This document shows, piece by piece, positions 11,819-63,500 of a stretch of 64,000 nt of DNA. Both the position numbers and the translations under genes were made by a program. Positions within the stretch are counted from its first letter, which is position 1. Each line of letters opens with the position of its first letter. The notes beneath the pieces are model-generated. The model saw only the letters and a list, made by a program, of their open reading frames with translations. It did not search any database and was not told the DNA's origin. Source of the stretch: an uncultured Methanosarcinales archaeon (GTDB lineage Archaea > Nanobdellota > Nanobdellia > Woesearchaeales > ARS49); contig CAZWVL010000001.1 of the NCBI GenBank assembly GCA_964637115.1, forward strand, positions 127,340 to 191,339, given 5' to 3'.

Positions 11819-11859
11819 CGACAGCAACCTTTAAAAAGATACTTCTGATTTTTAGCACT

Positions 11860-42500: not shown

Positions 42501-45500
42501 GATTAAGCTTCTGAGCTGGCTTGTTGTCTGCACACCAGCAGACTTGAGCAAGTTTGCAATTTCCAGATACTCTGGAGACTGTGAAGCAGCTTCGTAAGCA
42601 GGCAAGGCCAACTGCAATGAATCATCAGCCTGCGCTGCACCCTGCAGTTTGACAAGCTCCTGCTTCAAATCAATATCTCCATTGTCAGCCAATGAGCTCA
42701 AGACATCAAACTTGAGCGACTCATAGTTAACTTCTGATTCGGCAGCCTTTGCACGGACATTTGCGATAAACGCTTCCTTGGCAGCATCCATACCAAGCGT
42801 GCCAAGCTCCTGCGGATTGATTGCCGCAGCTTGAACTACATTAATCATAAACTCAGTGACATCAGCCCTTACACGATCCTGCTGCAATGCCAGATTGGAC
42901 TGTTCAACCTCGATCTGAGCGCCCTCTACCTGCAGAGCGGCCACATCAACCTGAGCAGCATATGATGCGCGTTCTTCAGCAGTTACTGCCTTTGCCAAAT
43001 TCTCCTGTGCTGTGGCAAAATTATCCAGCGCATTTGTGAGCTTGTCACGCGCAGACTCAAGAGCTTCAGTGTTTTTAACAGCACTTTCACGCGCCTGTGC
43101 TGCATCTGCCTTCAAACTGTCAATCTTACGCGTTTCAACTTCGACAATACGCTTGACTGCATTATTAATAGGAGTATCGCCCTTGCTAAACTCATTATAG
43201 CTGTCCTTGCTTCTAACATCCTCAAGAATTTCCTTGAACTCCCTGAAGTTTTTAGCCTCCAAAAGAGATTTTCCTGACTTGAATGGAGCAGCATCACTGA
43301 GTGCAACTGGCTTGGCATCATAAGATCCAAGATCCTTGAAAATGTCTTTTCCAGCCTCGCCAAGCTGCTGGATTTCAGGAGAATTCAACAAGTTATCCTG
43401 CACGTACTTTGCACGGCGTTCAATCTCACTCTTCATTCTATCAACAGTTTTCTGGCCGTATGCCGAATCAAGAGATGGCTCTTTTGCTGACGTGAACTGA
43501 TCATACCTGATGAGCTGGTCCTGCAAGCCCTTGATGTTGCGCATCGCGTCTTCTCTTGATATCTCACCACGCTCTGCCCTTGCAAGCTCGCTCTTGATAG
43601 CGCGGCTGAATCCGCCACGCACAACCTGGTCAAGATCCTGCAAGTCGCTACGCTCAGTGTATTCCTTAATGCCGGCAGCCTCACGCCTCAGAGCGCTTTT
43701 CAGCAAGCTCTTGACGTCGTTAATCGAAGCATCCAAGGACCCGACTTCAATAGAGTCTCCAACATTTCTCTTCCTGCCAAGCGCCTGCTCCACATCAGTG
43801 AGGCTTGTTGATTTGTCAACAATAACCTTGAATCTTGTTTCACCGAATTCAGCGCCAACTTCCCCACGCTCCAATCTCGATTTAAACGCAGCATTTGCAT
43901 CAATGTCCCTGCTTTGAGTAGTCTTCAAATCAAGACCTTCGATTTCATTAGTAATAACTGCGCCGTTCCTGCCCTTCAGACCCTTCTCCAGCACGACCCG
44001 CTTTGGATCAACTTCTGTAGTCTTGATTTCCAGCTTGCCCTCAGCAGTCTTGACAACTTCAGACAACAAGTACTTTCCGCCAACTTCCTTTGGAGTTCTT
44101 ACGAGCAGGAAATCACCTTCTTTTGCAGTTCCTTCTAACACGCGTGATTCAAGCGCTTCACGGCCAATGCGCACTGCATCTGCATAGCCCTTGCCGGCAG
44201 CATATATATAGGAGTCAAGGCCTCCTTTCCTGAAACCATCCTCAATATAACTCTTGACGTTATCAAGAACTTTAATACGCCCTTCAAGGCCCAAATTCTC
44301 TCTTGCGTTCGGACCTTCACCTGCCTTGAGCCTTGCATCAGCACGTTGAGCATCAAACTTGAAGGCGTCAGCAACTTTCTCACCAAACTCTGCCTTAATT
44401 GCATCCCTAAGCATTTCAGGAGAGACCCATCTAAGCGCACCAGATTCAAGCAGAATGGTTTCCAAGCCGGTTGAGCCCCGGAGCGCGCCCTCAACAAGCT
44501 TCTGCGTAGCAGTCAAGGCGGTATACTTGCCAAACTCACGCAAGAAGTCCTTCATATTAGACTTTGCAGACTTGGTAGTTATTTCCAACTCGCCAAGACT
44601 TGCCTTTGCTCCTGCACCCTTAACCAATGTTTCAATAATTATATGCCTGTTGACGTCTCCAAAGCTCATACCCTCTTGAGCAACTGCACGTTCTTGCATC
44701 GGACGAACTTCTTTCACATTTCCTGCAGCATCAACAATAGTCTCGTAGCCTTTCTTCAACGATTCATCCTTGAGAACATCTTTCAACTCGCCAAGCAGTT
44801 CCTTATACTGCTTCAAGTCACCAAATCCTTTCTTCAACGCGTCAACAGTAACCTCTTTACCCAAAATCTTTGAAAGCTCACTTGCGAAATCCTTAAGCGC
44901 GCTGTCCTTGAATTCATTGAACAGATCATTCGGCTCCCTTGCAAGTTCTCTTGCAGCGCTTTCAAGGTCCTTGGCATCTGCTTCAAGGCCGCGCTTTCTT
45001 AGCTCAGCAACCTCCTTGTTCAGTTCTGCTGCCTTATCACCATTAGTCTTGAGCAAGTCCTCAATGACTTTCTTATTGTTGGCTGCAAACTCGTCCCCTA
45101 TCTTGAAACCCTTTGACTCCAGCAGTTTGAGCACATCTCCGGAAGCCTTAATCTTTGCAAGACCATCAACAGATGCAGATAATTTTTCAGTTGCAAGCGT
45201 ACGAATAAGGTCAGTCGCCTCTGCAATCTTTTGAATTTCATCAATCAAACCAGCGCGCTTCTTGAGCGCAGACATCATTCTGTCTGCAATTGAAAGTTCT
45301 TTGAAAGTTGCGCCAAAGAGCGATGCACTTGTGACGCGCTGGATTGTTGCAAAGTCAGTAATCAGCACTTTCGCATCCCTTGCTGCCTCAAGGTCAGATT
45401 CGGTCAAGTCACGGTCCTTCATCTTGCCAGTCTTTGCATCTATTTCAGTCAAGGAGAATTCTCTGACTGAGCCTTCTCCAAGAACACGCTCAACAAAGCC

Positions 45501-48500
45501 CTTGATATCCTTGTACAACGCTGAACGTTTCTGCGCCTCTGTCTGAATATTCAAGTGAGCGCCCTTGCCGAACAAAACGTCCCAAAGGATTCTATCAGGA
45601 GTGAACGTAGCAGTCTTTCCAAAGCCAGTCGGGGCCTGAATAAGAACACCTTCCTTGACAATGGCATTAATAATAGTTTCAACCTGATCAGCTCTGGGCT
45701 TCCTGCCCTCTTCTCCCTTCACGCCTTTTGATTTTGCAACTTCTGAATACACTCTTTCCAAATATGTCTGCAATTTCTTAACCAGCTCTGCTGCATTGGG
45801 CTTGCTGGCAATCTCTGGAATCTTCATCAACTCTTCGCCAAGCTTCTTTGCATCAACCTCGCGAACAGGCTTTCCGTCCGACCCCAGAACTGGTTTTCCA
45901 TCCTTACCAACAACTGGTTTGGACGCCTTGTCAACAGCGCTCTTAATCTGATCAGGTGAAGCGCCCTTGAAAGCTTCGTACATCTTTCTGCCAGTCTCAA
46001 CACCATCACGCATCCTTTCAATATTTGTCTTCTCAACTCCGAGCTTTTCCAACTGGACAGCAGCATCCTTGTTAATTCTATCAACAACAGCATCTCTGTC
46101 AACAACAGCATCTTTGCCTTTGGGCAATTTCAATAATGCATCTATTTCCTTCTCGCCAAAGCCGCGAGTGCGCAATTCATCACGCAAAACATTCGCCTCT
46201 GTCAGCTTTCCTGCAGTCGTGAGCTCATTTATTTGCCTGAGAGTTTCATACACTTTGTCAGCAGCGTGGATTTTTCCAGCTTCCATTTCAACACGCATTT
46301 CAGGAGAAGCACGCAATCCTGCTTCGTACAAGCTAACCTTTGCCGCTTCAACCAATTCCTTTCCTTCAATCTTCGCAGCAGCCTCATTCAACCTATTCTC
46401 AATATCCTTCTGGCTTTCCTTGACTGCAGAATCAACCACTTCTTTGCTGAAGAACTGCTCTCTTGTTCTCAACAAGCGCTCGCGCTCTAAACCAAGATTC
46501 TTCAAAGAATTCTTCAGCAAGTATGCTTCCTCGTAAAGTTTTCTGACTGCCGATGCTTCAGGAGCATTACGTGCTTCGAGCATTTTGGCCTTGGTAGCAA
46601 GCTCGGCAAGCGACTTCACTCCTCCAAGTTCAAGAGCTGACCGCAACTTTCCATCCAAAACATTCTGAAGATTACTGAGCTGCTTAATTTCCCTCGTATA
46701 AGCCCGCCTCTGCGCCTCTGCATCCTTTGCAGAAATCAGGCGTTCCTTGGCCTGCCTGTTAATTTCTGCAAGATCCTTGGCCAGTATTTCACGGTGGCTC
46801 GCCAAATCCTCGCTTTGCGCCTTGAGAGCATCCGAGTTCATGAAAGACCATTCCTCAATCTTTCTAGCTTCCCGCATCGCGTCCTCAACCTTCATTCGCG
46901 CAGCAAGCTCATTTCGCAATGAAGCTGCGGACAATTCATCAAGCTCACCAGAAGCTTCAAGTTCCTTATAGTAACCGTCAAGGCTCGACATCCAGATGAG
47001 AGTGTTAAAGTCGCGCAAACGTTCTGCTCTCAAAGCTTCTTCACGCGCTGAACTCAAGGTTTTTTCCGCAGCAGAAAGCTCTTCCTTGAGCACAACTTCA
47101 GGTTCTTTCAAGAATCTGTCAAGCTTGCTGAGCTTTTCACGAATCTCTGCTTCCAAACGGTCAGCTTCCTCATTCTTGCCTTCTCTTCGTAATGCCTCGG
47201 CATCTTTGGAAAGCCTGTTGATTTCATCAGTGCGCTGTCCAACCTGCTCATCTATGACTTTCTTCATTGATTCGCCGGCCTGTTCTCCAGCCTTCAAGGC
47301 GTCCGCATTCTTCGCCAAGAATTCATTATAATCCCGACTGAGCCGGTCAGCCTCGCGCTGTGCCTCGCGTGCAGCATCAGCTTTACCCTCTGCGCGCAGT
47401 CGGTCAGCTTCCTTTTGAGCATCTTTGACATTCTGGCTCTTCTCCAGCTCAGACCTGCGCAGCTGTTCAGCATTATCAAAGCCTGCCTCTTTTGCAGCAG
47501 CATCGGCTCTCTGTTGTGATTCCCGCGCTGTTTCGTGCGCTTTGTAATTGTCAGAAATACGCTGCACTTCACCAGAAGCTTCGGCAAGATTAATGCCTGC
47601 ACGCTGATAGTTAATTTCAAAGCGCTGCGCGTTAATCTGATTCTTTGCAGTTTCATAGTTTGGCGCGTTGGAGTCAAGCATGTTTTGCTGCCTGTTAAGC
47701 GCGCTTTCCTGCGCGTCAAGAGACTGACGCCTGGCGTTAAAGATTTCAGCTCTTTCTCGGGTAGTGTAATCAGCGTTAGTAAGCTGTGAAGGATCCTTGT
47801 TTAATCTCTTTGCTGCGTCCTCCACAATCTTGCCAATCTTTGCCTCGCCTGACATTCTGCCTAATTCGCTATCCATTCTTGCAAGCTCGCCAGACGCAGC
47901 CCTGAACTGTTCTGGACTGATTTCTCCTGCCTTTACGCGATTGACAAGATCCCTTTGTGCTGATTCGATCTTGCCTCTAAGACCTTCCGCTGATTTTCCG
48001 TCAAACTTGTTTTGCTCGAAATTATTGCGGGCTGATTGGAACTCCTTGCCCATTGCTTCATACTTAGGACCAAGTCTACGTGCCTCGATCTGACGAGCCA
48101 TTTCATCCAACGGCCTGCTCGCCTTGTCAACCCAGCCGTGCGTTGCTTTCAGAGCACCAAATGTCAGAAGGTTCTTGATGAAACTCTGGGCAATATGGCT
48201 CGCGTCCATTTTATCTCTCTGTTCCTGGCTTGCAGTTCCAAGCTCAAACAAGGAGAACGCACCAGACTCAATCATAAGGTTGAGCGCAAATGCCACTTTT
48301 ACACCAAAGTTCTTTCCAAGGCCCTTTGCAAAGGCTTTGCGCAATGAACTTTGAAGAGGACTCATACCGGTTGAGCCAGCCATCATTGCAGCACTCATTA
48401 TAAAGGCACGAGCACCCCAATGACCTTCATCAATCTGATCCTGCAATACAGCTGCAAAACTTCTGCCCTCTGCCAGACTTACTTTTCCTGCCTGCAATAA

Positions 48501-51500
48501 ATTGTTTGTAACGTGGAACACGGCTGCATTAGCAACGAACGTGCCAACTTTAATCGCGCCCTGGCCCCACTTGGCAGCAACCATTGTAACCCTGACAACC
48601 TTTGAAACAGCTCCAGCGACTCCCCCGCTCACAATCATAAGGCCGACGTCAATCATTGTTCCGGTGTTGAGAATACCGTCCCAGAAGTCCTCAGTATACC
48701 TGCCCTGCGAATCAAAGTTTGCCTTGAAGGGGAAATCGGTGGTGAGAAGGTTTTTCATCCTGTAACGATCTACAGCTGAAAGCCCTTTTCCAGCATTCTC
48801 AAGCTTTTGCGCAACAGTATTGCCTTCAGCACTGGCAAACTTGCCTAGCAGCCCGGCATTCTTCAAATGTTTAGCCAACTCAGCTTCAAATTCCTTTGCT
48901 CCATCAGACAAGATACCGTCTATCTTGTAGCGAGCTACTCCAATCGAATTGCCCCTCAGATATTCATCTTTATTGGCCACATTAATATCTGTAAAGGTAT
49001 TTGCATAAGCACCAGCTCTAAGCGCCCAAGCAGTCAGAGCATTAGCATAATCTTGTTCTGTCAGATAATCAGATATTTTCGGAGGCCGCAAATCAGTAGT
49101 AGGTTTGCCATTCTCGTCAAAGAACTGCCTGGTGACGGTCTGTGCAATCGCATTCGCCGCCTGCTGTGCGAGCTTGCCTCCAGTCCTCTTCAATTCATCA
49201 ATCAAATAATTAGCGTGTTCAGATATATCACGCAATGCATACCCGTCAGCAACGTTAGCATCAAGATACGGATGAGCTATCGGATAGAACGTCCTGTACT
49301 CTTCCTGCGCTTTCTGGTAATTCTTCTGTGCCATAGTGAGAGAACCTTGAGTTATCTTGGTGCTCACTGATTTGTGAAGTTTCATCGCATCAAGCAAGTC
49401 ATCTCTGGCAGTTATCAGGCTGACTTCAGCCTCATCCATATACTGCCTGGCAAGAGTTGGATCGGCAATCGCCCTGATTGCACGCGCGTTGTTATATTGA
49501 CGCTGCTGTGCCTGAACAACAGTTGAAGGAACTTTCTTGCCCATAAGATGCGCAACCTGCAAGTCCAGCAGGTTATTCAATTCCTCATTCACTTCCTTTC
49601 GCAGAGCAAGATCCTGCACTTTCAGCGCAGCCTGCAATGATTCAAAGAGTTTTGGATCAAACTTGCGCAATGCAAACATCCTTGCAGCAACATTGTCAAT
49701 AGCACGGAAAGCAGTTGTCTTGCCCTGAGCTGCATCCCTCAGCTCCCTATTGAACAAATTGAGAGTATCCTCGACAAGATTGGCAAGCTGCTGCTCAGCT
49801 TCAAGATTCTTGATAACCTTTATCTTGTCAGCAGTGAGGGAAGTGCCAACTGGCACGTAAGTAACCTTCGGGAACTTGCGGCCAACTTCTGCCAAAGTCT
49901 TTGAAGAAGCCTTCTTGCTGCCGAGGAGAAGACTTCCTTTATACTCTTCATAGAGTCTCTCCACTTCAGCCCTGGTATCGTCAGACAATTCGTATCTGTT
50001 CTTGTACGCCTCATCCCAATTGATATCACCATACCTGATATACTCCCTGGTGAACTTGTCCTTTACTGCTGCCAAAGTTTTTGAAGAAGCCTCCTTGGCG
50101 AGCTTTGCACGATCTCCCTTGACTGCTTCATAGAGCATCATAAATTCAATCGCGACATCATCCGGCAAAGCATGCCTGTTCTTGTACGCCTCATCCCAGT
50201 CGATATCGGAGGCAAAGTGCCAGTCCTTGTCTTTGAGTTTGGCCTTCAAATCTGCAGTCAGCGCATCATCCTTCTTGGCCTGCGCTGCAAATGTTTTTCC
50301 TTTAGTCTGCGCATTTGCGATTTTAGTCAACTTTAATTCGCTTAACTTGCCGACTTCAAGCACGTCGCCTTTCTTCAGTATAACGGGCTCGCCTGAATTG
50401 TCAGTAAGAAGCATATTTCCTTCCTCATCGTAGCGCACTTTCCAGCCATTTTGGTTGATCTGATTCTTGAACTGCTCAGACAGGAAATCATAAGTTTTGG
50501 CTTTCATTGCCTTCAAGACATCATCTGCGCGCACTCCATCCCACTGAACAACAGTCTTTCCTGTTTGCGGGTCAAAAGCGACAACCCCTGGTATTCCGCC
50601 ATTCTTAACATACTCTTCAAAGGCGGCAACCTGCCTGTTGTACAACTCTCCAACCCGCTCTTCAAAAGTCTTGTACTTGTCAAAGAATTCCATCGGTTGA
50701 GAATTGAGCGCGACCTTAAGCGCGTCTTTCATATTATTCTCAAACGTCATCTTATCGATGTTGGCGTCGTTGACTGACAACATTTTCATGTTGTTCATTG
50801 CGCCAGCAATGCCGTTAATCCTCTCAGTCGCGCCTTCACCCACAATAATTTCGTTAAGCACCTTTCTCATGTGGTCCTTATACTGCTGGGTGAATTCATC
50901 ATTGGGAGTTATTCTCGCACCATCAAATTTAACTCCAAGAAGACGTGCAGCTTCATCAACAGCATTCTGCAGCATCTGAAGCTTGCCGGCGTGATTTGCG
51001 TCAGGCACTTTATCAGCATCAATAATTCCCTGATTTATAGTAAGATCAGCCAGCTTCTTCCTGTAATCAAGATTGAGATTGCTTGGATCAAGTGCATCCT
51101 TGATTTTCTTACTTAAATCATCAAGGTCCTTCTGCAAATTATTGTACTTTGAATCATTCTTGATGTCTTCCTTGATCTGCTCATCAGTCTTTCCAGCAGT
51201 CTTGCCCTCATCAATCAACTGTTTGAGACGCTCATCACGCTTCTTTGCAGTCTCAGCATATTCATCCTGCAATCTGTTAAGCTTCGCGCCGCCATCCTTG
51301 AACGCAGAATCGATGCCTGTATTGTCCTTGATGTCCTTGATTTTCTTGTCAATATCCTCAAGTTCTTTTTTGGTATCTTCGAGACGTTTATTTTCATCAG
51401 CAGTCCTTGAATCCTTGTCCTTGCCCTCAAGAGCATTCTTTTCTTTCTCGAGCCTGTTCTTTTCAAGTTCAAGCTCCTGCAGCTTCTTCAAATCAGCAAT

Positions 51501-54500
51501 CGCTTTCTTGACATAATCTTCGCCAGCCTTCTCCATCTTGCTCTTGTAGCACGGTAAAAGCTCAGGCGGAATCTTGCTGACGTCAATCACATTCTTTTTG
51601 ATATACCTGCCAGTCTTGGGGTCGTACTGCTCAAGATAACCGCCTGCAATTGGCTTGTCGCTTGTCTCTCCCTTATCATTTGCCCAACGGCTCATCGGCT
51701 TCATTCCTTCAGGAGTATTGATGAACTCCTTGCCGCCCTTCTCAAAGATAGGGGTGCCATCCGGTGTCATTCCTTTGTAAGTAGCGGACTTATCCGCAGA
51801 AGTTATCTTGCCGGTATCAGCGTTCATTTCGAGACCGGCTTTTCCATACTCGGCCTGCAATTTCTTGACTATGTCCTTGGTATTGCACAAGTTCTTTGCT
51901 TGCCACTCAGGGATTTTCTTGAGAAGTTCTGCGTCTTTTGTAATCGCTTCTTCCCTAATCTTAATTTCGTCCTCCAGTCTTCTAACATCACCGGCCCTGT
52001 TCGGAGCATCTTTGGGCAGGTTTTTAAGCTGATCTTTATAATTTGGAAGAGTCTGGACTAGATTGTCATAGTGCTTTTGTGTTCCAGCCAAATCCAAATT
52101 CTCTGTGTGCGCCTTGTAAGTATCAATCAAGTCAGCAGACTGCTTGTTAAACGCTTCAAGCTGATCGACATCTGCGCTGCTCAATGAAGTGTGGAACTCT
52201 TTTGTAATCGCGTTTTGGAAGTCAATTCCGCCATCAGCCCTTGTCTGGCCTTCAAGCGGAACTCCATCAAGCGTGCGAGGGCCACCTTCCATCGACATCC
52301 TGCGCCTGCCAAGAAGCTCATTGCGCTGATCGTCAACCTTCTTGAACTCTTCACCAGTCTTTTTGATTTCCTTATTGCAGTTCTTGAAGTCGTCCATCAG
52401 CTTGTTGGCAGCGTTCTGGTCAAATTTATTCGGCTGGAATGGACTGTCTTCAACCGACTCGCTCAATGCTTTGTCCTTGTCAATAGGCTTGAACGGCTGT
52501 GCGCCATACTGCCTGATAACATCATCACACGGATTCTTCTGCTTGGGAGCAGCTTCCTGCGCCACAGTGGACCTTTTGAAACAATTATGCTTCAAAGCAT
52601 TATCATAATTATCCTTATCAGCACCAGTAAGTTTGGACGTATCAATTTCTTTGCCTGTTGCCCGGTCAACAATCTTGTAGTCCTTGCCAATCTTTCTCAT
52701 ATCATACTTGGAACCTGCACACGGGTTAACAGCAGGGTTGGTAACATTCGGAACAGTTGGAGCAGGAACTGTAGGCTTTCCAGCACTTGGAGTGGTTGAA
52801 CCAGACTGTCCGCCAGGAAGCTTTGGAGGCTTTCCAAAGTCAGGCGCAGGAGGCCAATCAACGTGCGATGGCTCTGGTTTTTTCTCTGGCTCGTAATACG
52901 GCTTATCGTTGTAGAAGCACGGGTCACAAGGATCTTGTGGAGTGCCAGGACTGGCAGGAGCTGCTGGCTTTGCAGGAGCAACTTGCGTCTGGCCAACTGC
53001 TAAGCCAGTTATGTCAAGGATCGCACCAGTTGTTGGACCTGTTCCGGACTGTCCAGTTGCCACACCTTGTGTTCCTGCCTGCTGAGGAATGCCGCCCGGA
53101 CCAGTTCCGGTTGGAACTTTCATTCCTTCAGTAGTATGTCCGGGAGTTGCAACATCTGCCAGTCCCGTCGGCTTTTTTGGCTTCTCTGGAGTTGGCGTTG
53201 GCTTTTTCTTGCCCTGCTTGACGTGACCAACATCCTTGCGTTTTGGACAGCACTTCTCATCATTGAATCCGGCTCTAATAAGGTGTACGACATTGTCCTT
53301 GTACTCAATATACTTGTAGTGAGCGTTTTCAAGCCAGACCAGTGAAATCATTGCGGAATCATACGCCTTCAGAATATCCATCGGAGTCTTTGCAGCATTT
53401 GCCTGCTTTACCGCGTCATCAGCCTGAGCGCCGGCCATATTCAAAAGAGCATTAACCTCGTCCATCGGAGGAGAGCCAAGACAGACTTTTTCTGGCACAA
53501 ATCCCATGCTTGCAAGCTTTCTTGCCTTATTTGCAAAATTCTGAGCAGATTTCTTCGGGTCAAACTTATCTAGACGGTTAGGATCATTCTTTTCTTTGTC
53601 CTGCTCTTCCTTCTGTTTCTTTTCCGCATCCTTCAGATTTTTCTCTGCATCGTTCTTTGCTTTCTGTGCTGCATCAGCATCTGCCTTGGCTTTTTCGTAC
53701 TTATTCAATAATCCAGGGTCTTTCTCCTGCAATGCTGATTTTGCCTCATCAACTTTGTTCTTAAATTCTCCAGCCCTCGGAGTGTCTTTCCACTTGTTAT
53801 AATTGTCAATGGCATCATTATACGTCTTTACAAGAGGCTCGCTGGCAATCGCATTGACCGCACTGTTTGCAGTATTGGAGTTGCCGGTCGTGCCAGACAA
53901 TGCTTGTTGCGCTGCACCAACCTGTGCGTCAAATGCTGTAGGACCTGCACCATAGTCTCCAACACCCTGTGCACCGAGATATTCTGCTGCAGAACCTGCC
54001 TGCTCAAGACCATAACCTGTCTTCTCGAATTCCTGTATGGCATCCCTCGCTGCCTTAGCAGGATCAAAGCCCTCTGGGAATTTTCCGGTCTTTGGATCCT
54101 TGAACTGGTCCTCCCAATTCTTCTTGGCTTTGTCAGCATTTGATTTTTCTTCAGCACGCTGTTCATCCGACTTGAACATCTTGTCAACCGCCATCTTCAA
54201 ATCGCCATCAAGGAACGGAGCAATGCCATCCAGGATTTTCTCAGCAGACTTCATCGCAGCCGTAGCGTGCGCCATAGCCTCGTCAGCCTTGCCCTTGTCA
54301 ATGCAACTATCTTCCTCAGCTTTTGCCCAGCCAACGTTGTCCTCAAAATGCCTCCAGAAGTTTTTCGTGGCCTCCCAATTACTGCCCTTTCTGTTTGCGT
54401 TAGAGTAAATCTCATTAAGAACTTCAGCAGGGCCAACAGGATGGTCGAATTTCTCGTAATCTGCTTCTTGTGCCGGAAGATTGCCCTTCGCAGGCTTAAC

Positions 54501-57500
54501 ATCAATCTTTCCAGAATCCATTCCTGGATTGACTGCCTCGCCACCTCTTGACATATCTAAACCAGAATTCTTCCATTGACTTGGAGGTGCAGGAAGCTTT
54601 GGCGCCACAGGAGCAGCTGGAGCTGCCTGCAAACCAGTAATCACGTTAGAGAATTCAGCAGCAATTGCGCCAGTAACAGAATTCGGCGCAGTTTCTGCAA
54701 CGTGCCCGCCAGTTATTCTTGAGACAAACGCTTCTGGAGAAACCATGGCTTGACCGTGCTCATCAGCTTCGCTGTACAAGCGTCTTACTTCCTTAGCATA
54801 TTTCACGCCAACGGCCGAATCTCTATCATCAATTCGAACCTTTTCAGTAATTTCAGGCCTGTCAGCAAGCTGATCAAGCGTTTGCGGCTCTGCACCACAA
54901 CCGCTCAAACAGCCAAGATCAGCAGAATCGCATTGTGAAAGACAATCCAATGATTGAGAATCATCCTTACAGGCATCCATTGCAGATGTCTTAAAGTCAG
55001 GAAGCAACTTGACAGACCTTTCGGCCGTTCTATAAGTGTCTGCAATCTCTGCTGATGCCTGACGCGCCTTGTCTATTCCCTCTGAAACACAAGGCGAAGG
55101 AGCACCTGCCGGCACGCAAAGAACATCAGAAGATTCTTCTTCAGCATCCTCAGCAGATTCGCGTCCTGCATTGAAACCAGCAGAAGCAGCATCGGTAAGC
55201 AAGTGAGGCTGCGATAATGCTGACTGCGCAGCTGCAAGAGCGCGAGAATCCAGCAGTTTTTTCATAACTACATCCATATTCAATGCAGCACCGCCCGTCA
55301 CACCTGTCTTCAATGGTACATTGGCGCACTCGAAAACTCTAGGCTCTGCATCCTTCAATCCAAACGCATCACGTTCGCTTGTCTCGTCACAAGCCCCGCC
55401 TTCGCACTCAGGACCATTCGCGTCAGCAGCACGACGCTCTCTAGGCTCGACGCAAGTCTTCGGATCACGGTTGTACGCAACATTCACATCAGGCCTGATA
55501 CTTGCAACGTCAACTTCAGGCAACACCTGCTGCTTTTTGACAGGAGTATCAGCGCCATACTTTTCACCCTCAACCTCGACATCTGTCTTATCAACAGCAC
55601 TTTGAGCATCACCAACATTTAGGTAATCAGTATCCTCAACCTTCTTTGACTTTCCATCCCACTTGAAAAGAGCAATGGTGTTAGAATCAATCTTGGCATT
55701 CTGAGGAATACTTCCGTCAAAAATTTCAATCATTAACGGAATACCCGCATCTCTTACAAGCGTAGCGTTCGGCTTATCGTCATACACTTGCTCATACGCT
55801 GAAGCATTAATTGCAATCACGTAATGCTCATTTGGAGCAACAATACTATTGTTCGGGAAGCTCGCAATCCAATAACCCTCAGCAAGCGCACTTGGAGATA
55901 TTGTTTGAGAAGTGTTTACAGTAATCAAGTAATAATAGAAGTTCTCAGGCTCTGAACCCTCGATTTCCTGCACGCTGACAGGCTTGTTAGTTATATAATA
56001 TGTGCTTAGATTGAGAGGTTTGTCTTCAGGATTATACAATTCAATGAATGCAGATGTCCTTAATTCATCCAAATGCTTTCCAATATCCTGATCAGATTGT
56101 GCAATCACGCCCGCTGTACCCAGGCCAACCTGAGGCTGAGGAACAATACCCAAAAGTTTCTGCGCAATAGCCTGACCAATACCAAGACCAGCACTTGCCC
56201 CGCCACCAAGTCCAGACTGAGTGCCAATGACATCTCCTGCATCAGGCAGGAGCACACTCTTATCTGCAACATCCTCAAACGATTTGTACTGAGGCTTTGC
56301 AACAGGCAGCAACCAAGTCGGATAGTTCGAGCCAGCAAGCGCAACAACAGAACCCTCATACCTGTCAACAGACTGGCCCTCAACAACAGCAGGAGCGTAG
56401 CTCAAGCTGACGATAAGGAACATCATGAACAGACCAATAATTCTCTTTCCTTTATCTTCCCTTGAATATAATGTCCTGAATATAACTAGTGCGATAATAG
56501 CAATAAGAGCTGCAAGCAAAAATCCAAGTATTCCAAAGCGCAACTTTTGCTTGGATGCCTCAAGAGGCATTTCAAGAGCAGGACTTGCAAACAACGGCGG
56601 TGAAACTTGGCTTATGATAAAGCCCATATGAGGCTCCTCAGGAGGTGGAGTCGGCTGTGTTGGCTGCTGCAACGGCTCGTTTGGCTCAAATCCTCCATCT
56701 GAAGGAACTTGAACCGGCACAAATCCTTCAGGACAAGTTGGAACACCAGGAGCTCCTCCTGGCATAGCTTGTCCAGCACAAGCTGGATGGTCTGCTCTCT
56801 CAGGAGAACCACCCTCTTTCTTGCACTTTCCTGGCTCTTTCTTATCCTTGCCTCTCTGCGCCTGCTCCTGTAACTTGTCAAGAGCTTGCCAGCCAGTAAT
56901 GCGTCCGGTTGCCTTGCCCTTGCCTTTACCCTGCGGCGATTCAGGCTTCATGCCATCGCATTCTTCGTCCTGCATCGGCTCACCAATGCATTCTTCCTGA
57001 ATTACTGCATCAATGTCAACTTCTGCTTCAAGGACTCCTTCTTTTCCACCCTCAGTTTCAACCTGGCCTTTCATTCCTGCTGCACGTTCGCGAGCTTTTT
57101 TCTCGCACTCAGGCATTTCATCAGCATCCTGAATCTGCCTGCCAGTAATTTTTTCAAACGCTGCCAGAACATTTTTCTTATCTTGTTCGGCCTTGTCTTC
57201 TTTTTCCTTCGTCTTCACGCAACAACATTGCTTCTTTGGAGGATCTCCAGGCTGCTCTGGCTGTTGAGGCGGCAAACCATCCGTGTAAAGAGGCGGCTTG
57301 AGCTCCAGTCCTTTGTGCTCGTTCGGCAACTTTGGCTGGCCACCGTGACCTGACTCTGGACAGTCCGAGCATTCTTCCTTGCACTTCTCATTTTCAACAC
57401 ACTCAGTCCTGAACAATGAAGAGCCAGCGATTTTCTTGCAAGCATCCTTGCACTGCTGAGTCGGACCCTTAGCATCACACTTGAAATGCATTTTCTTCTC

Positions 57501-60500
57501 GCCCTGCTTCTGCGAAATTCCGAAAAGCGGCTTCGTGGTCGTGCTTGTGATTCTGCAAATGCAACATCCCTTGCTCGGAGTGCACGCCGCGCCAGTCTTG
57601 TCAACCTTGCCGCCTGCCTTCTTACAATCAGAATCCAATTGACCTGCAACAACGGTTTTACCAGGCTCTGCCTTTTTCTCTGAACAGTAATCAGCACCCT
57701 TCCACTCTGCCTTTCCGTCCTTGCCGATGCAACAGCACGGTGCCTGTGTAGGAGTTGGAGTGGGGCCGCCGGCGCACGCAGGATCGTTAAGATTGGGAGT
57801 TGCGCCTCCACAAGCGCCCCAATCTGCAGGCACGTTCTGGCCAGTTGCCGTGCCAGTCTTGCAAGCAGCACCTTCCATGATTTTACCTTTATTCGGCCCG
57901 CTCGTGCAGCAACACTTCTCCGCTGATGGAGTTGGAGTGGCCAGACATTTCGTCAAGTCAGTGGTGGGCTTTCCACCGGCCTTATCGCACTCGCCGAAAT
58001 TTGCAGGGACACTTTCGCCAGTGGCAGTGCCGGTCTTGCACGCTACACCCGTCATTATCATGCCCGCTTTTGTTCCTCCCTGACAACAACATTTGTCAAC
58101 AGATGGTATTCCCGGTGGAGGTGGCGGAGGAGGCGGGGGTGGCGGAGGCGGAGGTGGAGATACTGGAGTCTTGCACGGCGTCGGAGTTGCGCACGGCGTC
58201 GGAGTAGGACAGTCTTCGTATTCATCACTACCAGTAATAGGCCCAGTAACTGTAGAGCCAGCTTCCAAACTTATAACGACTCCGCCAACAAGCGTTTGGT
58301 CGGCAGGAATGCACTCAAAGGTTCTTGGAACAGCATCCTTCAATGTAAATGCGTCGCGCTCGCTCGTCTCATCACAAGCCCCTTCTTCACACTCAGGACC
58401 ATTTGCATCTGCAGCACGGCGCTCTCTGGGCTCAATGCACGTTGCCGGATCACGGTTGTATGCAACATTCACGCCCTTCCTAATCTGCGCCAAATTAACT
58501 GTTGGAAGCACCTGCTGCTTTTCGATCGGAGTATCTTTGCCATAAATAATTCCGGAAATGCGCACACCTGACTTGTCAACAGCACTTTGAGCATTTCCAA
58601 GATTCAAATAATCAATATCAAGAATCTTAATCGTACCATTATGCCATCTGAATATTGCAATCGTGTTAGAATCTATGTTTGCATTAACAGGAATACTGCC
58701 GTTGAATAATTCTCTCATCACAGAAACATTCGTTACGGATTTATTTGTCAGCGTTGCATTTGGCTTTTCTTCATACACTTTTTCATACGCATCAGCATCA
58801 AGCGCAATCACATAATGAGTGTGAGGAGCTAAGGTAGTGTTCTCAGGGAATGCTGCAATCCAATAACCATCAGCAAGCGCACTTGGAGAAATGGTTCTTG
58901 ACTTATTTACGGAAATCAAATAGTAAGAATAGTTTTCAGGAGATAAAGAAATGTTCGTGCTATTCGGCTTATTGGTAATGTAGAAGTAATCCAGCTTAAT
59001 GCTCTCATCATCAGGATTAAAGATTTCAACGAAAGCGGCAGCCTTCAACTCCTGAAGACGCGCCTCAAGCTCCTCAGCAGAAAGTTTTGCAGTTGCCTCA
59101 GCAGTTCCAAGGGCAAAGCGAGGCTGCGCTTCCTCACCACGCATATTTTGAGCTGCTGCCTGGCCAGCAACAATTCCTGCTCCTGCACCACCAGCCAAGC
59201 CAACCTGAGTTGAGATGACATCAGAAACACCAGGAATTAGGACGCTATCATCAGCAGAATCTTCAAGTGACTTGAACTGGTCAACTGACTGGCCCTCAAT
59301 AAGTATGACGCCGAAAACTGCTGCAATGATAAGCATTGCCACAAATCCTTTCTTTCCCTTCTTGCGCAGCACAAAGTAGAGCATTACAAGAAGCAATACC
59401 AGTGCCAAAATCAACGGCCACATGTTTGATGACTCTGCAGTTACTGCTGTCGGTTTCTCGATAGAAGGAGCCAGAACCGCTTCCAACGGCGGAGAAACCT
59501 GGCTAATTATAATTCCCAGATGAGTTTTTGGTTCGAGAGTTGGCGACGGTGTGGGCGGAGGAGTTTCTTCCGGAGCAGCTTCTTCAGGGATCTCGCACGC
59601 TTGTATGCAGTCCAACATTTCATACGGCTGATCCTTGCATTCTTCAAACGCGCGCATCTTGGCATCAACACCACTGGTTGCATCACCAAGCGCAAAGCTA
59701 AGCGCGCGATCGACACAGTTCTGCTCTTCTGAAATGGTCACAGTAGGCACAATTGATTGCTCAACGGGAGTTGTATACGGTCCATAATCATACACAGACC
59801 TAGTCAACCCAGCAGGAGAAGGAACAGGCGTCCCATAATCATACACAGACCTAGTCAACCCAACACTAGAAGGAACAGGCGTCCCATAATCATACACAGT
59901 CCTAGTCAACCCAGCAGGAGAAGTAACAGGCGTCCCATAATCATACACAGTCCTAGTCAACCCAGCAGGAGAAGGAACAGGCGTCCCATAATCATACACA
60001 GTCCTAGTCAACCCAACAGGAGACTCTTTCACAGGCTGCCCGTGCGCAGCAGCACACTCCTGCATACAATCGCCCAGTCCAGACGGCACTTCTTCAGGAC
60101 CTTCTTCCGGCAGACCTTCTTCCGGACCTCCAGCACAAGCAGGATGATCCGGCTTCTCAGGCTTGCCGCCTTCCTTCACACATTTTCCAGGCTCCTTTTT
60201 CTCCTCTTTTTCGCCACCATCTTCATTCTCAGATTTTTCTTCTGGCTTTTCCTCGGCTGATGATTCAGGAGCCTGCTCATCACACTCTTCCTCTTGCATC
60301 GGCTCACCAGTGCATTCTTCCGCGATCAACTTGTCAACAGCAACTTCTGATTTCACAATGCCAGGCTTTCCAGCCTCAGCCTCAACCCGGTCCTTCATCG
60401 ATTCTGCACGCTCTCGCGCTTTCTTCTCACACTCAGCCGGAGGCCCTTTGGATTCCGGCTCTACGTCTTGAGAAGCTTGCTTCATCATTGACTCAACATT

Positions 60501-63500
60501 GAGCGCTTGACTTCCAGTAATGGACGACCTGAACTTTACTGCAGCAGATCTTTCAGGAGCAGTTGGAGGCTTGTCAAGAGCTTCTACTTTGCCATCTTCC
60601 GCTTGAGCATCTTCAGGACCGCGGCAGGTCTGCAAACAACCAAGATCTGCAGCATCGCACTTTGCCACACACTCCATAACTGGTGCATTTCCTGCACACG
60701 TTTCGCTCGCGAACTTCTTAAAGTCAGGAAGAACTTTCATCAAAGCGCCATTTTCACGAGCTGAAGATTCCTGCTCTCCCTTGAACTGCAACGCTGCAGC
60801 AATTCCATCCCGCACGCACTTTGCAGCCTTCGGCTTCACGCAACAGCACTCCTTTGGCTTAGGTCCGCCGCCACCAGGACCCTCCGCGCACTTGTCATTA
60901 GGCACGCAAGTAGGCTCTTCATAGAAGTTTTTATCACATTCCTTCTTGCAATTATCAGAAAACTTACCATTCTCACATTCGTTCTTGAACTGCTTCATGA
61001 AAGGAAGCTCAACTCCCTTTGGCGGCTTTGCCCCGAAAAGTGAAGTCTTCTTTCTCTTGCACTGGCAGCACTCTTTCTCTGCCAATTTACATTTTGGATG
61101 ACCAGATTCAACAATCTCAGCAGTGCCTCCAACACACCACGCTGCAATACCTGCATCCGCCATTGCTTTTTGCGTTTTGCAAGTTGCCTCGTCCAACGGA
61201 TCAAAGAAGAATATAGTCTTTTTATCCTTCTCGCAATAAACGCAGCAAGGCTTCTCAGGTATAGGAGTCTCACAAGGAGTTAGAGTTGGGCATGGCACCT
61301 TCGTCGGACAGGGCTTTTTCTTCTTTTTACAATTTGGATCTTCAGGGGTAGTGATTACGGGAGTTTCACCTGGCTTGCACGGTGAGGCTTGCGAGCCTTT
61401 GCATTTCGCAATCGGCGCGTCTGGAACTGGAACCCAAGTGACTTTTTTATTTTTCGTACAATAAATACAGCATCTTCCACCCGGTGTTGATGTTGGTGTT
61501 GGCGTTGGAGTATCTCCAGTCACAGTAGTAGGTGGAGGCGGCGGAGGCGGAGGTGGCTGCTGTGGAGGAGGAGGCGGAGGAGGTGGAGGCGGAGGTGGCG
61601 GGCACTCATCAGATGGAGTAGGACAAGGGCACTCTTTTGAAGTTGAAGTACTTGATCCTCCTGATGATCCGGCGCCGGGAATGTTAGGACCTGAAGCCAC
61701 ATTAGGACCTGTTGGCGGCATCGGGCCTTGCGACGGTCCCTCAAATTCTAATCCAAACATTCCACTGATTAAAGCGCCAGTTGTTTTGGAAACTTCAGGA
61801 GGAAGGCACTCAAAACTTCTAGGACTTGCGTCCCTCAATGTAAACGCGTCACGCTCGCTCGTCTCATCGCACATTAAGTCGTCACATTTTGGACCGTTTG
61901 CATAACTGGCACGGCGTTCCCTCGGTTCAAAGCACGTCGATTCATTACGAAGATACGCCACGTTCAAATCAGGTCTGACTTGTGCCAAATCAATGCTTGG
62001 AATCACCTGCTGCTTTCTAATCGGCGTATCGGCAGCATAAATAATTCCATTAACGTGAATGCTGGTCTTGTCAACAGCACCCTTAGCATCACCAACATTC
62101 AAATAATCAGTATCAGCAATCTTGACACCAGCGCCATCCCATCTGAACAATGCAACAGTGTTAACATCAATCTTAGCGTTTAAAGGAATGCTGCCATTGA
62201 AAATCTCTCTCATCACAGAAACATTACTTCCGGACTTGTTCGTAAGTGCAGCATCAGCATTATCATCATACATTTTCTCATACGCAGCGGCATCAACAGC
62301 AATCACATAATGTCCTTTTGGACCCAACACGCTGCCATTCGGGAATGCTGCAATCCAATAACCATCAGCAAGCGCGGCAGGGGAAATCGTTTGAGTCTTG
62401 TTGATAGAAATCAAGTAGTAGGAATAATTCACGGGAGACTGAGAAATGTTAGTGCTATTCGGCTTATTGGTAATGTAATAATCGTGAAGGTTAACTGGCT
62501 CGCTTCCAGGGTTGAAAATTTCGACAAAGGCAGAAGCCTTCAAATCCTGAAGACGCGCTTCAAGCTCTTCAGCAGAAACCCGCTTAGTCGCTTCAAATGT
62601 TGCAAGACCAACACGGGGCAGTGACCTGACTCCCAGCGCATTATGCACGACAGCCTGGCCAACACTAAGTCCTGCACCAGCGCCGCCGCCCAACCCTGCA
62701 TGAGTTGCAATAATGTCAAACGTGTTTAGGAGAAGAACACTTTTATCGACGACATCTTCAAACGACTTGAGTTGAGACAAGTTAACTGACTGGCCTTCAA
62801 TAAGCATAACACCGAAAACTGCTGCAATGATAAGCATTGCCACAAAGCCTTTCTTTCCCTTCTTGCGCGACATGAAATAAAGCATTACGAGCAGCAATAT
62901 CAGCGCCAAAATCCACGGCCATAGAGACGAATCAGCTTCCTTAATGGATGAAGGAAGTTCAACAGACGGCGCTGCACCTACAAAAAGCGGAGGAGAAATC
63001 TGGCTGATGATAATTCCATCGTGAGGTTCATCCGGCATTTCTGGCCGAGCAGCAGGCGGCTGTGCTGGGAACTCTTCTGCAGGAACTTCGCACGCTTTTA
63101 TGCAATCCAACATTTCCTGCGGTTGATCCTTGCACTCTTCCATCGCACGAGCTTTAGCATCAGCACCACTTGTTGCGTCACCAAGCGCACGATCAACACA
63201 ACTGGACGGAGAAGCTTTACACTTTCGCATGCAACCAAGATCAATCGGATCGCAAACAGCCACACAAGAAAGAACATTTTCCTGGCCAGCGCATGATTCT
63301 TCGACAAACTTCTTAGCATCCATCGTGATTTTAACAGAACCGCCAGCCTCTGCCTCACCCTTAACTTTCAACATCGCGTTAATGCCTTCACCAACACACA
63401 CGGCAGGCGAGTCTCCTGATTGATCAGATGAACTTTCAGTCGGAACAACTGGAGGCCGATCAAGAGTTGGCTTGCGAGCACGCTTCTTACAATCCTGCGC

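What the first reader, a model, noticed from the sequence alone, without database searches (positions are those of the whole stretch)
55330..62925. Three repeated TM-hairpin junctions that resemble 'anchor + new signal peptide': possible polyprotein processing
Seen: each unit (about 3-3.5 kb) has a TM helix, a short basic loop (RKKGKKG in units 1-2), a second TM helix and an invariant EGQSV, which is kept even in the diverged third hairpin; a lamin-tail-like domain follows. Established: KKG followed by a hydrophobic helix is the class III (prepilin peptidase) signal pattern, and a hairpin keeps both flanks on the same side of the membrane. Inference: the chain may be cut at KKG|F or EG|QSV into separately anchored surface subunits, or be stitched repeatedly to the membrane.
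Basis: partly seen in the sequence, partly recalled or inferred. Interest (0 to 1): 0.8.

Follow-up and report, generated by a model that had tools for sequence, protein, structure and literature searches.

The report
Membrane hairpins inside giant archaeal protein
Three short two-helix membrane loops in a roughly 13,000-residue surface protein of a small-genome archaeon match the spot where a relative has a gene boundary (membrane anchor, then export signal), which makes them the first comparatively supported candidate sites where such a giant chain restarts export and may be cut into subunits.

Summary
A single minus-strand frame (window 27507-63998, 12,163 codons, continuing on another contig) contains three paralogous junctions. 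Each has a conserved strand HxGxIISQ[IV]SPPL, a TM helix, a basic loop, a second TM helix, an invariant EGQSV, a Gly-rich linker and a lamin-tail domain (LTD).

The only relatives found are two contigs of one metagenome. There, the counterpart of junction 3 is a true gene boundary: gene A ends in a 7-TM anchor (..KRKK*), and gene B, overlapping by ATGA, starts with a canonical Sec signal peptide (..APALVEA|QV) that aligns with our TM2 and EGQSV. The counterpart of junction 1 is fused but has 8 TM helices.

The LTDs lack their first strand. Fold comparison and a controlled complex prediction place the upstream IISQVSPPL strand in that position, so each hairpin interrupts an LTD.

The "anchor + signal peptide" reading is therefore supported. 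The class III (KKG|F) reading is not, because J3 and both relatives lack that motif. Cleavage by type I signal peptidase after EG is plausible (about 0.45) but unproven. Permanent, uncut stitches are almost as likely (about 0.40). The feature is a new variant of known internal-signal and polyprotein designs.

The parts
27507..63998 (-). Giant open reading frame (12,163 codons in the window; 5' end continues on contig C6). The first ~4,000 aa are Cys-rich ectodomain. The rest is Cys-free and carries SpoIIE/PP2C, metallophosphatase and HEAT domains, ending in a C-terminal TM.
62982..63023 (-). J1 donor strand HDGIIISQISPPLF (aa 326-339), predicted first beta-strand of the following LTD
62871..62924 (-). 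J1 TM1 (aa 359-376), stop-transfer/anchor helix
62847..62870 (-). J1 cytoplasmic loop SRKKGKKG. The ATG two codons before RKK is possibly a relic start codon.
62784..62846 (-). J1 TM2 (aa 385-400, signal-peptide-like h-region of 16 residues) plus EGQSV. Candidate type I signal peptidase site is IEG|QSV.
61806..62783 (-). J1 Gly-rich linker (aa 406-489) and LTD lacking strand A, plus Cys knot EPRERRA..CDETSERD..FEC (aa 490-731)
59481..59522 (-). J2 donor strand HLGIIISQVSPPLE (aa 1493-1506)
59283..59423 (-). J2 hairpin: TM1 aa 1526-1543, loop LRKKGKKG (GTG at the position of J1's ATG), TM2 aa 1552-1567, EGQSV
58311..59282 (-). J2 linker (aa 1573-1654) and LTD plus Cys knot (aa 1655-1896). The AF2 model has pLDDT about 90 over the LTD.
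56589..56630 (-). J3 donor strand HMGFIISQVSPPLF (aa 2457-2470)
56367..56537 (-). J3 hairpin: TM1 aa 2488-2507, loop RTLYSREDKGKR, TM2 aa 2520-2539 (IIGLFMMFLIVSLSYAPAVV), EGQSV. It is the ortholog of the gene A / gene B boundary of the relative.
55326..56366 (-). J3 linker (aa 2545-2649) and LTD plus Cys knot (aa 2650-2891). It is 51% identical to the N-terminal 387 aa of the relative's gene B.

Best explanation
Each junction is a stop-transfer anchor (TM1), a short basic cytoplasmic loop, and an internal Sec-type export signal (TM2). This insert sits inside a lamin-tail domain, between its first strand (HxGxIISQ[IV]SPPL, before TM1) and the rest of the domain (after TM2 and an 85-105 aa Gly-rich linker).

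During Sec-dependent export of the ~4,000-aa ectodomain, TM1 halts translocation and TM2 restarts it. Both flanks therefore end up outside, and the upstream strand completes the downstream LTD by strand donation.

TM2 keeps the features of a cleavable signal peptide: a basic n-region, a 15-16 residue h-region, and I/V at -3 and G at -1 in [IV]EG|QSV. I therefore think the precursor is most likely cut on the outer face by one of the archaeal type I signal peptidases. That would yield four membrane-anchored polypeptides that stay chained non-covalently, which is the state the relative encodes directly as two genes.

Shown: the anatomy, the paralogy, the homology of TM2 to a real N-terminal signal, and the missing first LTD strand. 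Predicted: the strand docking. Inferred only: the topology and the cleavage itself.
For: (1) Relative contig Ga0247727_10005488. Gene A (P0010) has Cys-rich repeats, GLIISQVSPPF and a 7-TM anchor, and ends ..NKISKRKK*. Gene B (7,339 aa called) overlaps it by ATGA, has GAGG 8 nt upstream and an in-frame stop 21 nt upstream. It begins with a canonical signal peptide that aligns with our J3 loop/TM2/EGQSV, at 51% identity over 387 aa and collinear beyond.

(2) -1 = G/A and -3 = I/V are kept in J1, J2, J3 and gene B. Pro sits at -5 in J3 and in gene B. EGQSV is invariant although J3's helices have diverged.

(3) The h-regions of 15-16 residues lie within the range of this organism's own N-terminal signals, including the giant's own ..LVLSISVVSA|EQ and ..LLAIPLFSSA|QE of another Cys-rich protein.

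(4) The genome encodes three archaeal type I signal peptidase homologs.

(5) The hairpin is the most conserved block between units 1 and 2.

(6) Loops carry 5 K/R. Flanks are acidic, Cys-rich or LTD, which are typical exported modules.

(7) LTD profile matches start at profile position 22-25 in all modules. In the AF2 model, lamin Ig domains align from model residue 13-14, that is, they include the IISQVSPPL strand (Z 6.9, rmsd 2.7-2.9, 100-102 aligned).

(8) Complex prediction of gene A's strand segment with gene B's LTD module: score 0.88, best of 3 controls 0.00. That mark was reached by 58 of 80 solved complexes and 2 of 110 mismatched pairs. The runs share at least 59% of contacts and the partner's pLDDT is at least 49. 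The interface is exactly the conserved motif against AAAFIELYNP.

(9) 74 representative LTD homologs carry a signal peptide directly before a complete LTD (..DHLLISEVVVTPTEGEFIEIYNP).

(10) Precedent for signal-peptidase cleavage after the second helix of a TM hairpin in a cellular protein: astrotactins (10.1101/493858).
Against: No proteomic or biochemical data exist, so cleavage rests on motif features only, and the (-3,-1) rule is permissive.

In J1 and J2 the hydrophobic run extends to -3, leaving a very short c-region.

The relative's fused junction (L012) lacks E[GA]Q (..SLALAAIGAPLGQ), although ALA|A is a possible site there.

The hairpin interrupts a single domain, so the chain need not be cut to function.

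EGQSV could be conserved for structural reasons.

Only two organisms carry the module, so the comparative depth is minimal.

The complex prediction used my own shallow alignments, and the partner's own fold is uncertain. Halves of a split gene tend to pass such tests. Solved structures of peptides or strands added to lamin Ig domains exist (7yvd and 7crg), so a memory effect cannot be excluded.

Whether gene B's N-terminal signal is itself cleaved is also unknown.
Confidence: 0.45

Rival explanations
1. Same architecture and origin, but no cleavage. The hairpins are permanent stitches: stop-transfer plus re-start elements inserted in the first loop of each LTD. They break export of a 4,000-aa ectodomain into ~1,000-aa stages and tie each LTD to the membrane, and the protein remains one chain.
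For: The hairpin lies within one domain, with strand A before it and strands B onward after it, so continuity is natural. The relative keeps one junction fused with 8 TM helices and without the EGQ motif. Multi-pass proteins are generally not cut. TM1 and TM2 are similar in length. The (-3,-1) pattern is easily met by chance.
Against: The ortholog of TM2 works as an N-terminal signal of a separate protein with a canonical c-region, so continuity is dispensable. The invariance of EGQSV beside a diverged helix and the short h-regions are not explained by a plain anchor.
Confidence: 0.4
2. Cleavage by the class III (prepilin/archaellin) peptidase at KKG|F on the cytoplasmic face.
For: J1 and J2 match [KR]G|hydrophobic. 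The genome has one A24 peptidase and many pilin-like N-termini such as MKRG|QL.., MNKKKG|QI...
Against: J3 (KGKR-IIGLF), gene B (..GMRK-LIGLL) and the relative's fused junction (KIKGK-TFLS) lack a G/A at -1 directly before the helix. The site is internal, behind another TM helix, which is unprecedented for A24 peptidases. What follows is an LTD, not a pilin fold. The pattern itself is unspecific.
Confidence: 0.03
3. Separate proteins are made by internal translation starts in the loops (ATG in J1, GTG in J2). Each would then have an ordinary N-terminal signal peptide, with no proteolysis needed.
For: ATG (J1) and GTG (J2) sit at the same aligned position, two codons before RKKGKKG. The relative uses a real start at the equivalent place.
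Against: J3 has no start codon at that position. No Shine-Dalgarno-like motif precedes the J1/J2 codons, whereas the relative has GAGG. The frame is continuous, so full-length translation would still occur.
Confidence: 0.04
4. Assembly or sequencing artefact: the junctions are really gene boundaries, and stops or frameshifts were lost in a metagenome-assembled genome.
For: The genome is a 27-contig MAG. The gene contains repeats, and one contig break lies in it. In the relative a single-base change would fuse genes A and B.
Against: All three junctions are in frame within 36.5 kb without a stop. Their sequence (2 TM helices) differs in structure from the relative's boundary (7 TM + stop + signal), so they are not simple indel errors. 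The relative also has a fused junction.
Confidence: 0.03

Closest known systems
Signal-peptidase-processed TM hairpins of viral polyproteins (flavivirus prM/E/NS1, pestivirus and bunyavirus glycoprotein precursors; established knowledge, reviews PMC7926653 and PMC4974537 surfaced)
   Same: A stop-transfer helix, a very short basic cytoplasmic loop, and a second helix acting as an internal signal for the next ectodomain. A small -1/-3 site lies at the exoplasmic end. The upstream product keeps the hairpin as its anchor.
   Different: This is a cellular archaeal gene, not a virus. Cleavage is unproven. The hairpin lies inside one Ig-like domain rather than between independent proteins. The peptidase would be an archaeal Sec11-type enzyme in the cytoplasmic membrane.
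Astrotactin-1/2 (10.1101/493858)
   Same: A cellular protein with an N-terminal signal, an ectodomain, two TM helices and a large ectodomain. Signal peptidase cuts after the second helix and the fragments stay associated.
   Different: A vertebrate ER protein with a single hairpin, whose fragments are held by a disulfide. Here there are three hairpins and a predicted strand-donation contact.
Prokaryotic and organellar polyproteins with internal signal peptides: Bradyrhizobium FbcH cytochrome b/c1 and thylakoid PsbY (from my own knowledge, not retrieved here)
   Same: One reading frame and an internal signal sequence, cut by a type I signal peptidase to give separate membrane proteins.
   Different: Small bacterial or plastid proteins. 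No repeated junctions and no split domain.
Giant surface proteins of DPANN archaea (SPEARE-type, up to 9,409 aa; PMC10266531) and giant Omnitrophota proteins (10.1101/2023.11.21.568195)
   Same: A giant membrane-associated protein in a small-genome, probably host-dependent organism, with an N-terminal Sec signal, a large ectodomain, and cytoplasmic-type enzyme or ATPase parts. Whether such proteins are cleaved is stated there as an open question, with cleavage points unknown.
   Different: No sequence relationship was found. At 12,163+ aa it is longer than the archaeal examples cited there. Here specific candidate processing sites are defined and supported by a split ortholog.
Donor-strand complementation in chaperone-usher pili and archaeal threads, bundling pili and cannulae (PMC9715654, PMC12337348, 10.1101/2024.12.30.630787)
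   Same: An Ig-like fold lacking one strand is completed by a strand from the neighbouring polypeptide or segment. In archaea the subunits are Sec/signal-peptidase substrates.
   Different: This is not a filament. The donor strand comes from the membrane-proximal end of the preceding module, across a TM hairpin. The contact is predicted, not solved.

Membership tests
Sec-type (class I) signal peptide cut by type I signal peptidase | Positively charged n-region directly before the hydrophobic core | tested here: met
   SRKKGKKG, LRKKGKKG and REDKGKR precede TM2
Sec-type (class I) signal peptide cut by type I signal peptidase | Short h-region (about 7-17 residues) rather than a 20+ residue anchor | tested here: met
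   16 residues in J1/J2. In J3 and in gene B of the relative, 15 residues before the APA(V/L)VE(G/A) c-region
Sec-type (class I) signal peptide cut by type I signal peptidase | Small uncharged residue at -1 and small or aliphatic residue at -3 | tested here: met
   IEG|Q, IEG|Q, VEG|Q, and VEA|Q in the relative. No trained predictor (SignalP) was available.
Sec-type (class I) signal peptide cut by type I signal peptidase | Located at the N-terminus of the translated protein | tested here: not met
   Internal in this genome, at aa 385, 1552 and 2520. N-terminal only in the ortholog gene B.
Sec-type (class I) signal peptide cut by type I signal peptidase | Actual removal by signal peptidase | not testable with these tools
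   Needs N-terminomics or a cleavage assay. The genome does encode three TIGR02228-type peptidases.
Class III (prepilin/archaellin) signal peptide | [KR]-[GA] immediately before the hydrophobic stretch, conserved among homologs | tested here: not met
   Present in J1/J2 only. Absent in J3, gene B and the L012 junction.
Class III (prepilin/archaellin) signal peptide | Short leader at the N-terminus, followed by a pilin-type domain | tested here: not met
   Internal position behind TM1, followed by an LTD
Class III (prepilin/archaellin) signal peptide | A24 peptidase present in the genome | tested here: met
   PF01478 hit at C3:7090-7419, 55.3 bits
Lamin tail domain (PF00932) | Profile match above the curated cut-off | tested here: met
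   53.8 bits against 34.3 for the protein. Single copies score 19.6-28.3 bits in the genome scan. A custom HMM built from 74 homologs gives E 1e-36 to 5e-42.
Lamin tail domain (PF00932) | Ig-like beta-sandwich fold | tested here: met
   AF2 pLDDT is about 90 over the domain. Lamin A/C and B1 Ig domains: Foldseek prob 0.97; VIA Z 6.9, rmsd 2.7-2.9, 100-102 aligned. DUF4876 4q1z: Z 12.7, rmsd 4.4, 217 aligned.
Lamin tail domain (PF00932) | Contiguous domain that includes its first strand | tested here: not met
   Matches start at profile position 22-25. The first strand is predicted to come from the IISQVSPPL motif before the hairpin.
Signal-peptidase-processed polyprotein | Products can exist as separate polypeptides | tested here: met
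   The relative encodes the two sides of J3 as two genes
Signal-peptidase-processed polyprotein | Demonstrated endoproteolysis of the precursor | not testable with these tools
   No proteomic data are available
Donor-strand complementation | The missing strand is supplied by another segment or chain | tested here: inconclusive
   Prediction only. Score 0.88 against best control 0.00; that mark was reached by 58 of 80 solved complexes and 2 of 110 mismatched pairs; at least 59% shared contacts; partner pLDDT at least 49; my own alignments. It is consistent with the monomer model.

The most novel reading that the evidence does not exclude
A cellular polyprotein in an archaeon. A precursor of about 13,000 aa is threaded through the Sec channel in stages. 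Type I signal peptidase cuts it at three internal signal peptides into four separately anchored subunits. These subunits remain chained on the cell surface because each donates the first beta-strand of the next subunit's lamin-tail domain. This would be the first defined processing map for a prokaryotic giant protein.
Probability: 0.35. Interest if true: 0.8.

Novelty: new variant of a known kind. Interest (0 to 1): 0.62.

Why it matters
Whether the giant proteins of small-celled, host-dependent prokaryotes act as one chain or are cut is an explicitly open question. The preprint on giant genes states that cleavage points are unknown (10.1101/2023.11.21.568195). This locus gives three precise, experimentally addressable candidate sites. 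It also comes with a natural control, a relative in which one site is a real gene boundary.

It suggests how a Sec system can export an ectodomain of thousands of residues: in ~1,000-aa stages separated by stop-transfer and re-start hairpins.

It shows an unusual protein topology, an Ig-like domain interrupted between its first two strands by a membrane hairpin (or by 8 TM helices, or by a gene boundary). This links gene fusion and fission with strand donation.

If cleavage is confirmed, viral-type polyprotein processing by signal peptidase would have a cellular archaeal counterpart.

Tried and rejected
1. Searches for relatives mostly came back empty. There was no match to the junction module in 40 close genomes (14 of the same genus) or in 400 genomes of the order. 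The species-representative genome collection gave only distant bacterial LTDs. Three searches of the 5.8-billion-protein collection and one exhaustive search of representatives gave only LTD-level hits plus P0010. The 7,339-aa gene B did not appear in those searches either, so very long proteins seem not to be covered, and rarity among giants is not shown.

2. Sorting enzymes. No exosortase/archaeosortase (PF09721) hit was found, but the control rang only in M. jannaschii, so sensitivity is poor. IISQVSPPL as a sortase-type signal was dropped once it was predicted to be an LTD strand.

3. The relative's 7-TM anchor matched no Pfam family and gave no usable Atlas neighbour.

4. The near-threshold DUF4131 (ComEC N-terminal) match to hairpin J1 (30.2 bits against 31.6) was judged a hydrophobic-composition match.

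5. A dedicated extra signal peptidase was rejected. Relatives that lack the module also have 1-4 paralogs. One of those genomes, G010, is unpublished, but the range holds without it.

6. Pilin_N (PF07790) gave no hit, so I used a regex scan instead.

7. Splicing the motif in silico onto the LTD raised the custom-HMM score by only 0.6-3.9 bits. The identity of the motif with strand A therefore rests on structure prediction, not on sequence statistics.

8. Gene conversion as the sole cause of J1/J2 hairpin identity: codon identity among identical residues is only mildly raised (0.73-0.81 against 0.4-0.75), so this is undecided.

9. No 16S rRNA gene is in the assembly, and the window holds no Rfam family or tRNA.

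Full report
WHAT IS THERE

The finding lies inside one enormous minus-strand frame, window 27507-63998, with 12,163 codons and no stop. The window ends at the end of contig C1. The frame continues on C6:2-2398, which supplies about 800 more residues. These begin with a Sec-type signal (..AIAIVFTLLVLSISVVSA|EQSS), and the contig break falls in a Gln-rich tandem repeat shared by both contig ends.

The genome is a 1.27-Mb, 27-contig assembly. It is archaeal: ribosomal protein S8e is present, a family that rang only in the archaeal controls, and archaeal-type signal peptidases are present. Earlier notes of this scan call it a Woesearchaeota/DPANN archaeon. I did not verify the phylum.

THE OBSERVATION

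A hydropathy scan and motif search locate three TM hairpins:
- J1: aa 359-400
- J2: aa 1526-1567
- J3: aa 2488-2539

The loops are SRKKGKKG, LRKKGKKG and RTLYSREDKGKR. Each hairpin is followed by EGQSV, and the spacing is 3501 and 2916 nt. EGQSV, KKGKKG and SQxSPPL occur nowhere else in the genome's six frames.

An alignment of the three units shows a ~430-aa module in this order:
- P..HxGxIISQ[IV]SPPL
- TM1
- basic loop
- TM2
- EGQSV
- a Gly-rich linker (D[VI]IxTQxGLxGGAxAG..GQA)
- an LTD
- a Cys knot (EPRERRA..CDETSERDAF..FEC)

The LTD call is supported by Pfam (53.8 bits against a 34.3 cut-off). It is also supported by an AF2 model (pLDDT about 90 over the domain) whose closest solved folds are lamin A/C and B1 Ig domains and DUF4876.

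Between units 1 and 2 the hairpin is the best-conserved stretch, at 87-90% identity for both protein and DNA against 50-80% in the LTD. In J3 the helices are diverged but EGQSV is intact.

TOPOLOGY (INFERRED)

The loops carry five Lys/Arg each, which by the positive-inside rule places them in the cytoplasm. The flanks are acidic. The first ~4,000 residues hold all but about ten of the protein's cysteines, whereas residues ~4,200-12,163 are almost Cys-free and carry cytoplasmic-type domains (SpoIIE/PP2C, metallophosphatase, HEAT). Both flanks of each hairpin should therefore be outside the cell.

RELATIVES

The module is very rare in what could be searched. It was absent from 40 close genomes, from 400 genomes of the order, and from the species-representative collection. 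Protein searches returned only LTD-level homologs plus one informative protein, P0010. Giant proteins appear not to be indexed in those collections, so this is not evidence of uniqueness among giants.

P0010 lies on metagenome contig Ga0247727_10005488. It carries the same CCC-rich repeats, then ..PHKGLIISQVSPPF.., a TM helix, KNARRRK, six more TM helices, and ends ..NKISKRKK*. The next gene (7,339 aa called) overlaps it by ATGA. It has GAGG 8 nt upstream and an in-frame stop 21 nt upstream of its ATG.

That gene begins MKRLLKQGMRK-LIGLLMISLVFSLSI-APALVEA|QVIG. It then continues with the same linker, LTD and Cys knot, at 51% identity to our aa 2518-2891, and stays collinear for at least 1,000 further residues. 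The counterpart of J3 is therefore a genuine gene boundary. Our TM1 corresponds to the first helix of a C-terminal anchor. Our TM2 plus EGQSV corresponds to a textbook Sec signal peptide with its c-region.

A second contig of the same metagenome (L012) holds the N-terminal part of the relative's giant gene:
- a signal peptide
- two Hint domains
- Cys-rich and Gln-rich regions matching ours
- ..HEGIIISQISPPL..
- eight TM helices in frame
- the linker and LTD

That junction is fused, as ours are, but with 8 helices instead of 2, and it lacks the EGQ motif (..GSLALAAIGAPLGQ..). A tree of the five LTD modules groups J1, J2 and the L012 module (support 83/95) and leaves J3 and gene B outside. This is consistent with J1/J2 corresponding to the L012 junction and J3 to gene B.

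Helix counts are 7 + 1 (split) and 8 (fused) in the relative, and 2 in ours. All are even, so every version keeps both flanks on the same side of the membrane.

THE JUNCTION LIES INSIDE A DOMAIN

In all five modules the LTD profile match starts at profile position 22-25. A helix, not a strand, precedes AFVEIFNP in the model. By contrast, 74 representative homologs have a signal peptide followed directly by a complete LTD, with consensus ..DHLLISEVVVTPTEGEFIEIYNP... The missing piece resembles IIISQ[IV]SPP.

In the AF2 model of aa 1480-1925 the motif forms a strand with pLDDT about 86. Lamin Ig domains align from model residue 13-14, so the alignment includes that strand (Z 6.9, rmsd 2.7-2.9, 100-102 residues aligned).

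I then ran a controlled complex prediction using the relative's naturally separate pieces: gene A's 61-aa juxtamembrane segment and gene B's LTD module. It gave a score of 0.88, with the best of 3 controls at 0.00. That mark was reached by 58 of 80 solved complexes and by 2 of 110 mismatched pairs. The runs agree in at least 59% of contacts, and the partner's pLDDT is at least 49. The confident interface is exactly PHKGLIISQVSPPFA against AAAFIELYNP, the first strand present in the module.

Caveats on that prediction:
- The alignments were my own and shallow.
- Halves of a split gene tend to pass such tests.
- Solved structures of strands or peptides added to lamin Ig domains exist (7yvd, 7crg), so model memory cannot be excluded.
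- Sequence statistics alone do not establish that the motif is strand A: an in silico splice gained only 0.6-3.9 bits.

HOW IT MOST LIKELY WORKS

TM1 stops translocation and TM2 restarts it. The ectodomain is thus exported in ~1,000-aa stages, and each LTD is completed by the strand that precedes the hairpin.

Whether TM2 is then cut is the open step. The case for cleavage:
- A basic n-region, a 15-16 residue h-region, G at -1 and I/V at -3 in all three junctions, and A/V at those positions in gene B.
- Pro at -5 in J3 and in gene B.
- The island of invariance at EGQSV.
- h-region lengths like those of this organism's own N-terminal signals.
- Three type I signal peptidases in the genome, though this number is ordinary for the lineage.
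- The relative shows that a chain break at this point is compatible with function.
- Signal peptidase is known to cut after the second helix of such hairpins, both in astrotactins (10.1101/493858) and in viral polyproteins.

The case against cleavage:
- The (-3,-1) rule is permissive.
- J1 and J2 have almost no c-region.
- The relative's fused junction lacks the motif.
- A hairpin inside a single domain needs no cut.

My odds are: cut by signal peptidase I 0.45, uncut stitches 0.40, class III cut 0.03, internal initiation 0.04, artefact 0.03.

THE CLASS III IDEA

KKG|F fits the generic pattern only in J1 and J2. J3, gene B and the L012 junction do not fit it. The pattern hits about 80 frames in this genome, including lipoprotein-like signals. 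The site is internal, and an LTD follows it rather than a pilin fold.

COMPARISON AND NOVELTY

Internal signal peptides cut by signal peptidase are known from viral polyproteins and astrotactins, and (from my own knowledge) from FbcH and PsbY. Strand donation is known from usher pili and from archaeal threads, bundling pili and cannulae (PMC9715654, PMC12337348, 10.1101/2024.12.30.630787). Giant DPANN surface proteins are also known (PMC10266531).

What is new here is the combination:
- repeated anchor-plus-signal hairpins inside a >12,000-aa archaeal protein;
- each hairpin interrupting an Ig-like domain;
- an ortholog in which the interruption is a gene boundary.

It also speaks to the question, stated as open for giant genes, of whether and where such proteins are cleaved (10.1101/2023.11.21.568195). 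I class it as a new variant of a known kind, with interest 0.62. The evidence is purely computational and rests on two organisms.

Noticed in passing
window 63800-63998, and genome contigs C1 end / C6:2-2398: The giant gene is broken by the assembly inside a Gln-rich tandem repeat (GAPQQIGQGGVFQQ). Its true N-terminus lies on contig C6: a GTG start, a Sec signal ..VVSA|EQ, then Thr/Pro and poly-Pro linkers. The total is therefore about 12,950 aa or more.
   Followed up: partly
window 27507-51400 versus 51400-63998: Cysteines are confined to the first ~4,000 residues (up to 26 per 300 aa) and are almost absent from aa ~4,200 to the end. The likely outside-to-inside switch is a weakly hydrophobic Gly/Ala-rich region at aa 5109-5253 (window about 48240-48670).
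   Followed up: partly
L012:2140-2930 (relative contig Ga0247727_10027740): The relative's giant protein carries two tandem Hint/intein-like domains (PT-HINT 2.2e-21, Hint_2 5.3e-11) right after its N-terminal Thr/Pro linker. Our protein has none at that place. This would be a second, autocatalytic way of processing.
   Followed up: no
L009:2950-3662 and L012:5340-5920: A conserved 6-helix membrane domain (PVLP[YF]AxLTxGSxLGxLGSFAIP..) lies between TM1 and the signal-like helix in both junctions of the relative. It has no Pfam or Atlas match, and it is absent from all three junctions of this genome.
   Followed up: partly
window 62532-62783, 59037-59282, 56052-56366: The linker after EGQSV holds a strongly conserved glycine-zipper-like segment (D[VI]IxTQxGLGGGAGAGLxxGQAxAQ). 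It is weakly hydrophobic and poorly modelled (pLDDT 40-60). Its role is unknown; it might lie on or dip into the membrane.
   Followed up: no
window 59560-59830: Five tandem copies of an 18-aa repeat (GLTRTVYDYGTPVPSPA) occur only in unit 2, upstream of junction J2.
   Followed up: no
window 27082-27501 (-): A 139-aa helical ORF with no Pfam or NCBIfam match starts 6 nt after the giant gene's stop and is probably co-transcribed with it.
   Followed up: partly
window 30500-42260: Other first-stage notes on this window list a recurrent EPxVAKKPxLP linker between the cytoplasmic domains, a SecA-like ATPase and a C-terminal JAMM motif. These are possible further processing or export elements of the same protein, not examined here.
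   Followed up: no
genome C4 (minus strand, 1,699-aa frame) and C3:25124-25462: Another large exported protein starts MRRAIIITTIIAAILLAIPLFSSA|QEVGCCCDP and shares the CCC motif of the giant's ectodomain. A separate 282-aa frame holds a complete LTD (profile positions 4-108, 69 bits).
   Followed up: no
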